Source: a virus. From it: DNA of 64,000 bases. Positions 26,674 to 27,655 of the stretch are shown piece after piece (positions within the stretch are counted from its first letter, which is position 1; the number at the start of each line of letters is the position of its first letter). The notes under the pieces are model-generated. The model worked only from the letters and a program-made list of their open reading frames with translations, was not told where the DNA came from and did not search any database. The stretch is taken from IMG/VR virus record IMGVR_UViG_3300045988_122518; one strand, 5' to 3'. Both the position numbers and the translations under genes were made by a program.

Positions 26674-26702
26674 TGAAAGGTTTTATCTTTTCCTTTCATT
26701 AT
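26674..26702. promoter_or_regulatory. hairpin (AATGAAAGG / CCTTTCATT) in the 5' leader of the 26646 operon
   Basis: 9-bp inverted repeat inside a 240-bp AT-rich divergent promoter region. Confidence 0.25.
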
Positions 26703-26787
26703 TATATAACTTTTATTTTGTGTAAATATATTATAATTACTGACACTTTTTGGATAAAAATTTCACTTACTCAAAATTAAATAAATT

Positions 26788-26840
26788 TGACACTTTATAA
26801 TTTTTTATTTTACAATATTTAAAAATTTTTGTATAATTAT
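26788..26840 (+). promoter_or_regulatory. promoter region for the LytTR regulator (TTGACA; TTACAA, 16 nt, TGTATAAT)
   Basis: Consensus-like hexamers with an extended -10 about 50 nt upstream of ATG 26890. Confidence 0.4.
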
Positions 26841-26889
26841 AATATAGAAAGAATATAAAGATAGAAAAATTTTTTCTAAAATAAACAAA

Positions 26890-27606
26890 ATGAAGGTGAT
26901 TAAAATTTTTATCGTAGGTGTTTGCGACAATAGCGATTAGCAAAATGACTCATTGGAAGAAATAATAAATCAGTATTTTAAAGATTTTAATTTACCAGGA
27001 TATGTATATAAATTTACTGATCCTGAAAAATTAATTAACTCTAATATTGATTATGATGCAATCTTTTTAGGGATTACATTCAAAAAAATGGATGGTATTG
27101 AAATAGCTCATCTTTTAAGAACAAATGGGTATATTGGAAAAATAATTTTTGTTTCCTCCCAAATAAATTATGGAGTAGCTTCTTATGAAGTAAAGGTATT
27201 TAACTTCGTCAAAAAACCTGTTAATAAAGAAAAAATTTTTTCTATTTTACATGAAGTTAGAGAAGAAAAAAGACGTGAATATAAATATTTAGATACCCCT
27301 AATGGAGAAGTAAAAATTGATTTAAATAAAGTATTATATGCTGATATTCAAAAACGAAATTTGTGCTGTCATTTAGAAAATGAGGTTCTAAATAGTAAAA
27401 CTCTAAAAACTTCTTTTGAAAATTATATAGGAACTTTAGTTTATCATCCAGATTTTGTCTTTATTCCGCCAAGTTTAATTATTAATTTAAATCAAATTAA
27501 AATAATGAATAAAGACAATTTAACTTTTAAAAATGGTGAAGTTTTATACTTTCCTAAAAAAGGTTATGAAGAAATTAATCGACGATGGAAAAATCCATTC
27601 AGATAA
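26890..27606 (+). CDS. AgrA/ComE-like LytTR-family response regulator (receiver plus LytTR DNA-binding domain), 238 aa, in-frame TAG at 26938; phospho-acceptor Asp apparently replaced by Gly (FLGI instead of FLDI)
   Basis: Receiver-like region DAIFLGITFKKMDGIEIAHLLRTNGYIGKIIFVSSQINYGVASYEVKVFNFVKKP aligns with S. aureus AgrA YFLDIQLS ... GNIIFVTSHSELTYLTFVYKVAAMDFIFK. The C-terminal LytTR-like beta-rich domain runs about 100 aa. It is the only + strand gene inside the late region. Confidence 0.65.
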
Positions 27607-27655
27607 AAAAAAATAAGGGAGACATTCAATTAAGAATGTCTCCCTTATTTTTATT
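27605..27655. terminator. bidirectional terminator (A-run, AAGGGAGACATTC / GAATGTCTCCCTT, T-run)
   Basis: 13-bp perfect stem flanked by A9 and T-rich tracts. Confidence 0.6.

What the first reader, a model, noticed from the sequence alone, without database searches (positions are those of the whole stretch)
26674..27655. Phage-encoded AgrA-like LytTR regulator with degenerate phospho-acceptor, on the opposite strand inside the late region
This is the only + strand gene between 23.7 and 64 kb. It is flanked by a divergent promoter region and a bidirectional terminator. Its receiver domain aligns closely with staphylococcal AgrA, but the phospho-acceptor position reads FLGI instead of FLDI. That suggests a phosphorylation-independent or decoy regulator rather than a kinase-controlled one. 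It carries a TAG at codon 17, so its own synthesis depends on suppression. Candidate roles are a late-promoter activator or a device for tapping or blocking host Agr-type quorum sensing.
Basis: partly seen in the sequence, partly recalled or inferred. Interest (0 to 1): 0.75.

Follow-up and report, generated by a model that had tools for sequence, protein, structure and literature searches.

The report
Phage LytTR regulator with dead receiver
A family of large gut phages that read the TAG stop codon as glutamine carries a conserved AgrA/ComE-type DNA-binding regulator that has lost its phosphorylation site, so it most likely acts as a kinase-independent phage transcription factor, but its targets are unknown.

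Summary
Window 26890-27606 (+) encodes a 238-aa protein with an N-terminal receiver domain and a C-terminal LytTR DNA-binding domain. The best full-length structural match is ComE. The phospho-acceptor position is Gly61 (FLGI). Codon 17 is an in-frame TAG in a phage that clearly reads TAG as sense, with Gln the best-supported reading. The gene has two near-consensus host-type promoters and a 19-bp bidirectional terminator. It is the only convincing + strand gene in the - strand structural/lysis block.

It is not close to AgrA: 30% identity over the receiver only, and 23 bits against an AgrA cut-off of 400. It is a conserved core gene of a family of phages with contigs up to 197 kb. At least seven lineages (31-99% identity) carry it in the same position, convergent with the holin or endolysin gene. 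It is under purifying selection (dN/dS about 0.1).

Across the phage clade the receiver active site decays in different ways, while the LytTR half is twice as conserved. Bacterial relatives keep the Asp and sit next to a kinase.

No classical LytTR boxes occur in the late intergenic regions. The only candidate operator is a set of CACTT direct repeats in the gene's own divergent promoter region. "Late activator" and "Agr tapping" remain untested. This is a new variant of a known kind and is moderately interesting.

The parts
26890..27606 (+). Coding sequence of the regulator: 238 codons, ATG to TAA. The true start may instead be ATT 26905.
   Evidence: dN/dS is 0.08-0.15 against six relatives. 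The 99%-identical protein P0001 represents a cluster of 574 member sequences.
26902..27264 (+). Receiver (REC) domain, aa 5-125. It is a pseudo-receiver: D13-N14 replaces the acidic pair and Gly61 replaces the phospho-Asp, while S89/S90 and K109 are retained.
   Evidence: Pfam Response_reg 34.7 bits. AlphaFold2 predicts a (beta-alpha)5 fold with mean pLDDT 91. Foldseek matches receiver domains with target TM-scores of 0.8-0.9. Key residues are tabulated.
26938..26940 (+). In-frame TAG, codon 17, at the start of helix alpha1.
   Evidence: It is present in every full-length, in-frame window-like copy (L006, L011-L021, L023-L027) and in L001; L022 and L028 carry 5' deletions that remove this codon. 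Other lineages have a TAG at aligned positions 18, 20 or 21. TAG alternates with Gln codons at codon 28 in L013 and L026.
27070..27072 (+). GGG codon for Gly61, at the position of the phospho-acceptor Asp (AgrA D59).
27277..27594 (+). LytTR-type DNA-binding domain, aa 130-235. This is the more conserved half of the protein.
   Evidence: Pfam LytTR E 4.4e-4 covering profile positions 4-97 of 98. 8 of 12 phage-clade members match LytTR. Full-length ComE (PDB 4cbv) is the best Foldseek hit, E 5e-14. Mean pairwise identity in the clade is 0.47 for this half against 0.27 for the receiver.
26787..26837 (+). Two tandem near-consensus sigma-A/sigma-70-type promoters. P1 is TTGACA-18-TACAAT and P2 is TTTACA-17-TATAAT.
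   Evidence: The T-G-TATAAT element is invariant across lineages down to 47% protein identity. All eight lineages whose upstream regions were read (window, L023, L001, L007, L029, L030, L031, L033) have a TTGAC(A/T)-17-TATAAT-like promoter. Only about five correctly placed sites of this quality occur in the 64 kb.
26740..26798 (+). Candidate operator made of three direct CACTT boxes: CTGACACTTTTT (26740), TTCACTTACTC (26762) and TTGACACTTTAT (26787). Spacing is 20 and 27 bp, and all point in the direction of the regulator gene.
   Evidence: Box 1 is invariant in alignment A3 while its flanks vary. A related CAC(A)TTTT motif is enriched on the + strand upstream of the gene in other lineages, but that motif was chosen after looking at these sequences. 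No exact 7-mer is shared by four or more deep lineages.
26892..26899 (+). Conserved Shine-Dalgarno-like GAAGGTGA, five bases upstream of ATT 26905.
   Evidence: ATG 26890 is not conserved: it is TTG in L023 and TGG in L001, and L007 has no ATG, GTG or TTG there. ATT 26905 aligns with the Met1 of relatives that have a canonical start.
27609..27652 (.). Bidirectional intrinsic terminator shared with the convergent holin gene. The stem is 19 bp with T-runs on both sides.
   Evidence: Equivalent stem-loops with changed stem sequence are present in L001, L007 and L030.
27651..28061 (-). Convergent neighbour: holin, the last gene of the - strand structural/lysis block.
   Evidence: phrog_13712 holin, E 7e-38. 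In other lineages the convergent neighbour or the next gene is a NAGPA/PG_binding_1 endolysin.
23715..26646 (-). Six-gene - strand module transcribed divergently from the regulator. Function is unknown. It is the most plausible local target.
   Evidence: Gene set. No Pfam function was found apart from a weak metallopeptidase motif in the last gene. Matching gene sizes and order occur in all lineages. Deletions in L022 and L028 remove part of this module together with the regulator gene's promoter and 5' part.
26665..26707 (-). Perfect 16-bp inverted repeat between the - strand promoter region and the ribosome-binding site of gene 26646.
   Evidence: pair I3. A weak consensus hairpin with G-U pairs appears when the - strand is folded.

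Best explanation
The gene encodes a phage transcription factor descended from bacterial receiver-LytTR response regulators of the AgrA/ComE/LytR kind. It no longer depends on a histidine kinase.

**Shown.**
- It has the two-domain fold.
- Its receiver lacks the phospho-acceptor Asp and one residue of the acidic pair.
- The phage clade as a whole has decayed receiver active sites but a well conserved DNA-binding half.
- The gene is a syntenic core gene under purifying selection.
- It has its own strong host-type promoters and its own terminator.
- The full-length protein requires read-through of an early TAG.

**Inferred.**
- The receiver now serves only as a dimerisation or scaffold module.
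- Host RNA polymerase transcribes the gene from infection onward.
- Full-length protein accumulates only while the phage's TAG-to-Gln suppression is active.
- The protein binds the direct CACTT repeats in its own divergent intergenic region. There it controls its own promoters and/or the divergently transcribed six-gene - strand module beside the lysis genes.

The identity of the targets is the weakest step.
For: **Architecture.** Pfam finds REC plus LytTR. A single-sequence exhaustive search gives 7,424 hits, mostly full-length proteins of about 240 aa, and precomputed Pfam domains for some of these relatives are PF00072 plus PF04397. The AlphaFold2 model has pLDDT 91.2. The best full-length PDB match is ComE 4cbv.

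**Dead receiver.** Gly61 sits where 122 of 138 relatives have Asp. Phage-syntenic relatives are degenerate in different ways:
- Gly at the acceptor in the window, L023, L001, L007 and L029.
- The acidic pair lost in L031 (SG) and L033 (SK).
- Glu, Val or Leu at the acceptor in P0007, P0030 and P0032, whose genomic context was not checked.

A canonical bacterial relative sits next to a HATPase_c_5 kinase. No kinase homologue is found in the window.

**Function retained.** dN/dS is 0.08-0.15. The LytTR half has mean pairwise identity 0.47 against 0.27 for the receiver half. Synteny is conserved in seven lineages.

**Expression signals.**

**TAG as sense.** Total ORF length (ORFs of at least 100 aa) rises from 41.7 to 69.1 kb when TAG is read as sense. 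TAG alternates with CAA/CAG between close relatives.

**Local operator.** The CACTT pair is unique in the window and conserved in L001 and L023.
Against: - No binding site has been demonstrated. The CACTT pair alone is not significant (1 match against 0.35 expected, and 31 of 100 shuffles reach it).
- No exact 7-mer is shared across the deep lineages, and the enrichment count used a motif chosen after the fact.
- The box spacings are 20 and 27 bp. Only the first fits the usual LytTR spacing of about 21 bp, which I cite from my own knowledge of the AgrA, ComE and PlnC sites.
- The LytTR Pfam score of the window protein is below the gathering threshold.
- In the L007 lineage residue 61 is Gly in L007 and L055 but Asp in L056 and L037. 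Three lineages (L030, L057/L058, L060) keep both the Asp and the DD pair. Some family members might therefore still be phosphorylated.
- About 130 kb of the phage genome was not seen. A kinase or other partner could be encoded there.
- Contigs L022 and L028 lack the gene's promoter and 5' part. These may be viable deletion variants, which would make the gene dispensable.
Confidence: 0.6

Rival explanations
1. Host-regulon hijack or decoy. The protein acts mainly on host DNA or host partners. It would occupy the operators of a host LytTR regulon (agr-like quorum sensing, bacteriocin, competence or autolysis genes). Alternatively it would heterodimerise with, or draw kinase away from, the host response regulator. 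Either way it would switch that regulon on or off during infection regardless of the host signal.
For: The protein descends from bacterial receiver-LytTR regulators that pair with HATPase_c_5 kinases. It is made from host-type promoters that need no phage factor. No classical or novel paired boxes are found in the late intergenic regions of the phage. There are precedents. LytTR-only anti-activators such as BlpS compete for the activator's sites (abstract of PMC8545106, listed). Phages are known to carry agrBDC without agrA, and LytTR proteins have been noted in Pseudomonas phages (review PMC11945551).
Against: The DNA-binding half is strongly conserved across phage lineages that are 31-68% identical overall and probably infect different hosts. 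That fits a target carried by the phage better than one carried by the host. Identity to any bacterial relative is at most about 32%. A conserved cis element sits next to the gene itself. The host is unknown, so no host operator could be examined.
Confidence: 0.2
2. It is still a signal-controlled regulator. Activity would be switched by something other than Asp phosphorylation, such as a ligand, the redox state of the conserved Cys near R156/H161, Ser/Thr phosphorylation or a partner protein. In the members that keep the Asp, a host or phage kinase could still act.
For: S89/S90 and K109 of the switch machinery are retained. Residue 61 switches between Gly and Asp in the L007 lineage, and three lineages (L030, L057/L058, L060) keep D plus DD. 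An R-C-L-C-Y-H motif is typical of the phage clade. Pseudo-receivers controlled by disulphide formation are known, for example RitR (PMC12632262).
Against: No kinase is found in the window. The gene is monocistronic with no co-transcribed partner. Receiver active-site positions vary freely across the clade and the receiver half evolves about twice as fast as the output half. This is the opposite of what a conserved sensing pocket would show.
Confidence: 0.12
3. The transcription unit matters more than the protein. A strong + strand promoter fires towards the 3' end of the holin/endolysin gene. This convergent or antisense transcription would delay expression of the lysis genes until late transcription takes over.
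For: This is the only + strand unit in the - strand block. In every lineage it is convergent with the lysis genes. It is driven by two near-consensus promoters.
Against: A strong 19-bp bidirectional terminator separates the two genes and is conserved. The protein itself is under strong purifying selection.
Confidence: 0.05
4. It is a decaying relic: a captured host response regulator on its way to becoming a pseudogene. The TAG would be a real stop and the Gly an inactivating mutation.
For: There is an in-frame TAG and the phospho-Asp is lost. One contig has a frameshift (L027) and two have deletions (L022, L028).
Against: dN/dS is about 0.1. The reading frame is intact across the TAG in every full-length, in-frame copy examined. 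TAG is a sense codon throughout this phage, with 235 TAGs in 47 genes. The gene is syntenic over deep divergence.
Confidence: 0.02

Closest known systems
ComE of Streptococcus pneumoniae (PDB 4cbv), the competence response regulator
   Same: It has the same receiver plus LytTR two-domain architecture and a similar size. It is the best full-length structural match (Foldseek E 5e-14). It is also hit by a profile built only from phage-clade sequences (E 1.8e-5).
   Different: ComE is phosphorylated on Asp58 by ComD and binds 9-bp repeats spaced by 12 bp (my own knowledge). The phage protein has Gly at that position, no kinase in the window, and 17-18% identity to ComE in the structural alignment.
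AgrA of Staphylococcus aureus, the quorum-sensing response regulator
   Same: The family and architecture are the same. The receiver aligns at 30% identity over 114 residues, with FLGI opposite FLDI.
   Different: The phage protein scores 23.3 bits against the 400-bit cut-off of the AgrA equivalog model. The C-terminal half does not align in BLASTP. No agrB, agrD or agrC is present in the window.
Bacterial (Clostridia-type) LytTR two-component regulators such as cluster P0018/P0294, with an adjacent HATPase_c_5 kinase
   Same: These are the closest cellular relatives, at about 25-32% identity over the full length. They have the same domain order and share the C-terminal W-x-x-Y tail.
   Different: They keep the DD pair, the phospho-Asp, the Thr/Ser and the Lys. 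They are co-transcribed with a sensor kinase and use the standard genetic code.
Pseudo-receiver / aspartate-less receiver atypical response regulators (for example RitR and Hp1021; reviewed in PMC12632262 and PMC4395418)
   Same: The domain is recognisable as a receiver but lacks residues needed for phosphotransfer. The protein is an orphan and presumably works without Asp phosphorylation.
   Different: The examples I know (from memory) have OmpR- or NarL-type output domains, and the term 'LytR' does not occur in the text of PMC12632262. This one is fused to a LytTR domain and is encoded by a phage.
LytTR regulatory systems (HdrR/BrsR) and LytTR-only anti-activators (BlpS)
   Same: These are LytTR DNA-binding regulators that work without a phosphorelay (abstracts of PMC6193735 and PMC8545106, listed).
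   Different: They lack a receiver domain altogether. HdrR and BrsR are held in check by a co-transcribed membrane inhibitor. The phage gene is monocistronic and keeps a full receiver fold.
phrog_8810 (PHROGs family of unknown function), and phage quorum-sensing genes such as the phiCDHM1 agrBDC cassette
   Same: The protein matches phrog_8810 over its full length (E 2.3e-25), so related phage proteins are already catalogued. Phages carrying agr parts, and Pseudomonas phages carrying LytTR proteins, have been noted.
   Different: phrog_8810 has no assigned function. phiCDHM1 carries agrB, agrD and agrC but no regulator, which is the reverse of the situation here.

Membership tests
Response regulator receiver domain (PF00072) | Profile match at or above the curated threshold | tested here: met
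   34.7 bits against a gathering score of 30.2, aa 39-120. 10 of 12 phage-clade members match.
Response regulator receiver domain (PF00072) | (beta-alpha)5 CheY-like fold | tested here: met
   AlphaFold2 predicts the strand and helix order with pLDDT 91. Foldseek matches receiver domains with target TM-scores of 0.8-0.9 and rmsd about 2 A.
Response regulator receiver domain (PF00072) | Phospho-acceptor Asp at the end of strand beta3 | tested here: not met
   Gly61 (GGG, 27070-27072) sits where 122 of 138 relatives and AgrA have Asp.
Response regulator receiver domain (PF00072) | Acidic pair after strand beta1 that binds Mg2+ | tested here: not met
   The window has D13-N14. 99 of 138 relatives have DD and 9 have ED.
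Response regulator receiver domain (PF00072) | Conserved Thr/Ser (beta4) and Lys (beta5) switch residues | tested here: met
   S89/S90 and K109 are present.
Response regulator receiver domain (PF00072) | Cognate histidine kinase | tested here: not met
   tblastn with the kinase adjacent to a bacterial relative finds nothing in the 64-kb window (best E 1.5). The gene is monocistronic. The remaining ~130 kb of the genome was not available.
LytTR DNA-binding domain (PF04397) | Profile match at or above the curated threshold | tested here: inconclusive
   The window protein scores 20.8 bits against a threshold of 22.6 (E 4.4e-4) but covers profile positions 4-97 of 98. 8 of 12 clade members match at E <= 0.01, best 2.9e-5. 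Full-length homologues carry PF04397 in precomputed annotation.
LytTR DNA-binding domain (PF04397) | Mainly beta-strand LytTR fold following the receiver | tested here: met
   The model has about ten beta strands in aa 131-220. Full-length ComE is the top hit. One caveat: the alignment used for the prediction included AgrA-type sequences.
LytTR DNA-binding domain (PF04397) | Binds imperfect direct repeats about 21 bp apart, upstream of target promoters | tested here: inconclusive
   A candidate CACTT pair 20-21 bp apart lies upstream of the gene itself and is conserved in L001 and L023. No classical pairs occur anywhere in the window. Binding cannot be tested with these tools.
AgrA (NCBIfam NF046049 equivalog) | Equivalog-level sequence match | tested here: not met
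   23.3 bits against a cut-off of 400. 30% identity over the receiver only.
AgrA (NCBIfam NF046049 equivalog) | agrB, agrD and agrC partners in the same locus | tested here: not met
   The neighbours are a holin and proteins of unknown function on the opposite strand. No kinase is found in the window.
Pseudo-receiver / aspartate-less receiver atypical response regulator | Recognisable receiver that lacks residues required for phosphotransfer | tested here: met
   The receiver fold and profile match are combined with Gly61 and D13-N14.
Pseudo-receiver / aspartate-less receiver atypical response regulator | Activity independent of Asp phosphorylation | not testable with these tools
   This needs biochemistry. 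Indirect support comes from the variable active site and the absence of a kinase.
TAG-recoded (code 15-like) phage | Genes become long and contiguous only when TAG is read as sense | tested here: met
   Total ORF length (ORFs of at least 100 aa) is 41.7 kb with the standard code and 69.1 kb with TAG as sense. One gene has 2,768 codons and 84 TAGs.
TAG-recoded (code 15-like) phage | TAG decoded as Gln | tested here: met
   TAG alternates with CAA/CAG at codon 28 between 96-97% identical copies (L013 and L026 against the others). TAG in L007 aligns with Gln91 of the window protein. Other TAGs align with Tyr, Asn, Asp or Ser, so the support is partial.
TAG-recoded (code 15-like) phage | Phage-encoded suppressor tRNA | tested here: not met
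   No tRNA is found in the window or in 13 related loci, and Rfam finds nothing. It may lie in the unseen part of the genome. Borges et al. detected TAG suppressor tRNAs in only 40% of TAG-recoded genomes.

The most novel reading that the evidence does not exclude
The regulator would be an 'amber-gated' transcription factor that reports the phage's genetic-code switch.

- Its mRNA is made from strong host-type promoters from the start of infection.
- A TAG within the first ~20 codons blocks synthesis until the phage suppressor tRNA is active. A weak ATT start codon may add to this.
- The kinase-independent LytTR protein then appears and turns on the divergent module beside the lysis genes.

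Translational recoding would in this way be converted into a transcriptional timing signal.

Support is suggestive only. A TAG lies at aligned positions 17-21 in 6 of 9 lineages, at four different codons, and it is the only TAG in the gene in the window lineage (including its 85%-identical relative L023) and in L031. By my own rough estimate that is about 4 independent events among about 24. This is not significant once the choice of window is corrected for. Early TAGs are not enriched in this phage in general.
Probability: 0.12. Interest if true: 0.75.

Novelty: new variant of a known kind. Interest (0 to 1): 0.45.

Why it matters
Receiver-LytTR regulators control quorum sensing, competence, bacteriocins and toxins in Gram-positive bacteria. 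Their DNA-binding logic is well studied.

This case shows a whole family of large, stop-codon-recoded gut phages that has kept such a regulator as a core gene while discarding its phosphorylation chemistry. It gives a natural series of pseudo-receiver variants on one scaffold: Gly, Glu, Val or Leu at the acceptor, a lost acidic pair, and Gly/Asp switching between near-identical phages.

It also offers a tractable candidate for how these uncultured phages time a module next to their lysis genes. If the early TAG proves to be a gate, it would be a concrete and testable case for the proposal that recoding regulates phage gene expression (Borges et al.).

As it stands, this is an interesting annotation and hypothesis, not a new principle.

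Tried and rejected
1. **Close AgrA relative.** Rejected. The AgrA equivalog model scores 23 bits against a cut-off of 400.
2. **Asp shifted by a residue.** Rejected. Three independent alignments place Gly61 in the Asp column.
3. **Gene starting after the TAG (TTG 26953).** Rejected. The frame upstream is open and shows a beta1-like pattern in all lineages. The ribosome-binding site lies upstream. A receiver without beta1 could not fold.
4. **Regulon search.** CTGACACTTTTT with up to 2 mismatches gives 15 hits against 9.1 expected, which is not enriched. The CACTT pair occurs only at the gene itself. There are no classical LytTR consensus pairs, and generic 9-mer repeats 20-22 bp apart fall only in coding DNA.
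5. **Shared exact 7-mers upstream of the gene in seven lineages.** None is shared by four or more lineages.
6. **General enrichment of early TAGs.** Absent: 1.19% in the first 25 codons against 1.24% overall.
7. **Kinase in the window.** None found.
8. **tRNA and Rfam scans for a suppressor or a leader RNA.** Nothing found.
9. **Function of the divergent six-gene module.** Pfam and PHROGs are uninformative.
10. **Host identification through the genome collection.** This returned only a 164-kb contig labelled as a Mollicutes MAG, which is probably the phage itself, and a 12.8-kb contig from a Clostridium sp. MAG.
11. **Isolated phages.** Only three unannotated faecal contigs at 25% identity.
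12. **5' leader hairpin.** The consensus fold is weak at -1.7 kcal/mol.
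Full report
**1. What the window is**

The 64-kb window has 30% G+C. Genes become long and contiguous only when TAG is read as a sense codon. Total ORF length (ORFs of at least 100 aa) rises from 41.7 kb to 69.1 kb, mostly on the - strand. Treating TGA as sense gives little gain.

- Positions 1-23.7 kb on the + strand encode replication and nucleotide-metabolism proteins: a Sak4-like annealing protein, DnaB, primase, a Dda-like helicase, a DnaE-type polymerase of about 1,330 aa and anaerobic ribonucleotide reductase.
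- Positions 23.7-64 kb on the - strand encode tail and structural proteins and a holin, with many in-frame TAGs. One gene has 2,768 codons and 84 TAGs.
- Among isolated phages the polymerase is closest to YorL of SPbeta-like Bacillus phages and to Enterococcus phages, at 39% identity.
- Genes are preceded by GGAGG-type ribosome-binding sites. A Bacillota host is therefore likely.
- Related IMG/VR contigs reach 197 kb.
- The phage fits the large TAG-recoded gut phage clades described by Borges et al., in which recoding is concentrated in structural and lysis genes.

**2. The observation**

The ORF from 26890 to 27606 (+) encodes 238 residues with TAG as codon 17, at 26938-26940.

- Pfam finds Response_reg above threshold (34.7 against 30.2 bits). 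LytTR is just below threshold (20.8 against 22.6 bits, E 4.4e-4) but covers nearly the whole profile.
- PHROGs places the full length in phrog_8810, a family of unknown function (E 2.3e-25).
- A single-sequence search of 1.8 billion cluster representatives gives 7,424 hits. Most are full-length proteins of about 240 aa. Precomputed Pfam domains for some of these relatives are PF00072 plus PF04397.
- An AlphaFold2 model is confident (pLDDT 91.2). It shows a (beta-alpha)5 receiver followed by a beta-rich domain.
- The best full-length PDB match is ComE, the only solved full-length receiver-LytTR regulator (E 5e-14).

'FLGI' is TTT TTA GGG ATT. Gly61 aligns with AgrA Asp59 in a direct BLASTP. It falls in the Asp column of 122 of 138 relatives. 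Of the acidic pair only D13 remains (D13-N14). The Ser (S89/S90) and Lys109 switch residues are kept.

Two tandem promoters each match 11 of 12 consensus positions (26787-26816 and 26809-26837). A 19-bp bidirectional terminator lies at 27609-27652. No other credible + strand gene lies between 23.7 and 64 kb.

- The similarity to AgrA is modest: 30% over the receiver, and 23 bits against the 400-bit AgrA cut-off.
- The start codon is uncertain (section 5).

**3. It is a conserved core gene of a phage family**

Homologues at 94-99% identity (many IMG/VR and Logan contigs), 85% (L023), 68% (L001), 47% (L007), 35% (L029) and 31% (L031, L033) all occupy the same position.

- The gene is a lone + strand gene between two - strand blocks.
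- It lies downstream of the dUTPase/replication block.
- It is convergent with the holin or a NAGPA/PG_binding_1 endolysin.
- It is divergent from a six-gene module with matching gene sizes.

dN/dS against six relatives is 0.08-0.15, so the protein is functional. Two contigs (L022, L028) carry deletions that remove the regulator gene's promoter and 5' part together with part of the divergent module. One contig (L027) has a frameshift. These could be natural variants or assembly artefacts.

**4. The receiver is decaying and the DNA-binding half is not**

In the phage clade the active-site positions vary freely:
- Gly at the acceptor in the window, L023, L001, L007 and L029.
- Glu, Val or Leu at the acceptor in P0007, P0030 and P0032 (close relatives whose genomic context was not checked).
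- Asp kept but the acidic pair lost in L031 (SG) and L033 (SK).
- Asp and DD both kept in L030, L057/L058 and L060.
- Within the L007 lineage, near-identical phages differ only in having Gly (L007, L055) or Asp (L056, L037) at this residue.

Mean pairwise identity in the clade is 0.27 for the receiver half and 0.47 for the LytTR half. The LytTR half has 15 invariant residues, including R156, H161, N199, Y220-F221-P222 and W233.

By contrast, a bacterial relative (P0294) has the canonical residues. It uses the standard code and is followed by a HATPase_c_5 sensor kinase. No homologue of that kinase occurs in the window.

The simplest reading is that a bacterial receiver-LytTR regulator was captured by an ancestor of these phages and lost its kinase. 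It has since been kept for DNA binding, with the receiver surviving as a structural or dimerisation module. This makes it a pseudo-receiver in the sense of PMC12632262 and PMC4395418.

**5. Expression signals**

The TGTATAAT element of promoter P2 is invariant from the window to L007. All eight lineages whose upstream regions were read have a TTGAC(A/T)-17-TATAAT-like promoter. Only about five correctly placed sites of this quality exist in the 64 kb. Host RNA polymerase should therefore transcribe the gene without phage factors.

ATG 26890 has no ribosome-binding site in front of it and is not conserved. It is TTG in L023 and TGG in L001, and L007 has no canonical start codon there. A Shine-Dalgarno-like GAAGGTGA (26892-26899) is conserved instead. 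Five bases further on lies ATT 26905, which aligns with Met1 of the relatives that have canonical starts. A weak ATT start is therefore possible. This is an inference.

The terminator stem-loop recurs in other lineages with different stem sequences.

**6. The TAG**

TAG is a sense codon in this phage, and Gln is the best-supported reading. TAG alternates with CAA/CAG at codon 28 between 96-97% identical copies. A TAG in L007 aligns with Gln91 of the window protein.

Strand beta1 is encoded upstream of the TAG and is the central strand of the receiver sheet. Read-through is therefore needed for a folded protein. No suppressor tRNA is present in the window or in 13 related loci.

The TAG is at codon 17 in every full-length, in-frame window-like copy, in L023 and in L001. 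It lies at aligned position 20 in L007 and L029, 18 in L030 and 21 in L031. L033, L057/L058 and L060 have no early TAG. The clustering looks deliberate, but the evidence is thin:
- I count roughly four independent events among about 24.
- That is not significant after allowing for the freedom to choose the window. This is my own rough estimate.
- The phage shows no general excess of early TAGs (1.19% against 1.24%).
- Replication genes also contain TAGs.

Dependence on suppression is real but not unique to this gene.

**7. Targets**

That check is negative.

The only candidate operator is local. Three direct CACTT boxes lie at 26744, 26764 and 26791, spaced by 20 and 27 bp. They sit in the 207-bp divergent region, upstream of the + strand promoters. 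They are about 15-50 bp upstream of a possible - strand promoter (TTTACA-17-AATAAT, 26726 to 26698).

- The first pair is unique in the window and in each related locus. It is conserved in L001 and L023 at 20-21 bp spacing.
- Box 1 (CTnACACTTTTT) is invariant out to L007 while its flanks vary.
- A looser CAC(A)TTTT motif recurs on the same strand upstream of the gene in L031 and L033. That motif was chosen after inspection, and no exact 7-mer is shared by four or more lineages.
- The ACA-N-TT core resembles AgrA/ComE half-sites. I cite this from memory and treat it as a lead only.

My best estimate is autoregulation and/or control of the divergent six-gene module of unknown function.

**8. Rivals**

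- *Host-regulon hijack or decoy (0.2).* This fits the bacterial ancestry and the lack of sites in the phage. It fits poorly with a DNA-binding domain that is conserved across phages likely to have different hosts.
- *Regulation by another signal (0.12).* This is kept alive by the retained Ser and Lys, a clade-typical Cys motif and the Gly/Asp switching.
- *A mainly antisense role against the lysis genes (0.05).* The strong terminator and the selection on the protein argue against it.
- *A relic gene (0.02).* This is effectively excluded.

**9. Novelty and verdict**

The following are all known: receiver-LytTR regulators, pseudo-receivers, phage-borne quorum-sensing parts, and a catalogued phage family (phrog_8810).

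What is new is the combination. A LytTR regulator with a decayed receiver is fixed as a syntenic core gene beside the lysis cassette of a family of large TAG-recoded gut phages. It has an early in-frame TAG and possibly a non-canonical start codon.

I rate it a new variant of a known kind, with interest 0.45. The most novel reading still open is an amber-gated transcription factor that couples the code switch to transcription. I give that a probability of about 0.12.

Noticed in passing
window 1-64000: The whole window uses TAG as a sense codon: 235 TAGs in 47 called genes. TAG is about 0.5% of codons in the + strand replication block and 1-3% in the - strand structural block. No suppressor tRNA and no Rfam family is present in the 64 kb.
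   Followed up: partly
window 26890-26907: The conserved Shine-Dalgarno-like GAAGGTGA lies after ATG 26890 and five bases before ATT 26905. The ATG is not conserved in relatives, and L007 has no ATG, GTG or TTG upstream of its TAG. The gene may start at a weak ATT or ATA codon.
   Followed up: partly
window 26665-26707: A perfect 16-bp inverted repeat with an 11-nt spacer sits between the - strand promoter region and the ribosome-binding site of gene 26646. Other lineages have a stem-loop here with different sequence, and G-U pairs appear only when the - strand is folded. The consensus fold is weak (-1.7 kcal/mol).
   Followed up: partly
L022 and L028 (IMG/VR contigs), corresponding to window 24317-26950 and 25833-27451: Two related contigs carry clean deletions that remove the regulator gene's promoter and 5' part together with part of the divergent - strand module. 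L027 has a frameshift in the gene. These may be natural defective variants or assembly artefacts.
   Followed up: partly
L007 and L055 compared with L056 and L037, residue aligned to window Gly61: Near-identical phages of one lineage differ by Gly or Asp at the phospho-acceptor position (FLGI against FLDI).
   Followed up: partly
L036 (CAMELE010000001.1, 163,874 bp): A contig deposited as a MAG of an 'uncultured Mollicutes bacterium' carries this regulator at 95% identity. It is probably the phage genome binned as a bacterium.
   Followed up: no
window 23715-26646, - strand: A conserved six-gene module of unknown function. It includes a 293-aa protein with an N-terminal hydrophobic segment, Gly-rich stretches and a Cys/Gly-rich C-terminus. 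It also includes a 140-aa protein (phrog_20016) and a 106-aa protein with an HExxH metallopeptidase motif and weak ImmA/IrrE-like hits.
   Followed up: partly
window 31815-39533 and 53441-61747, - strand: Two giant genes of 2,572 and 2,768 codons carry 30 and 84 in-frame TAGs. Their function was not examined.
   Followed up: no
window 62410-62461, - strand: The promoter upstream of gene 62405 (TTGACT-17-TATAAT, preceded by AAAATTTTTTG) closely resembles the regulator's P2 promoter. Host-type consensus promoters therefore also occur inside the structural block.
   Followed up: no
window 27355-27372 (aa 156-161) and alignment A4: The LytTR domain of the phage clade has a motif R-C-L-C-Y-H (R-N-L-C-C-H in the window). 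The bacterial relatives aligned lack these Cys residues. It could be a redox or metal site, or simply a buried core.
   Followed up: no
window 9168-10007, + strand: A signal-peptide-bearing Phage_lysozyme2 protein (E 1.9e-19) is encoded in the replication-side block, far from the holin at 27651-28061. Other lineages have a NAGPA-type endolysin next to the regulator instead.
   Followed up: no
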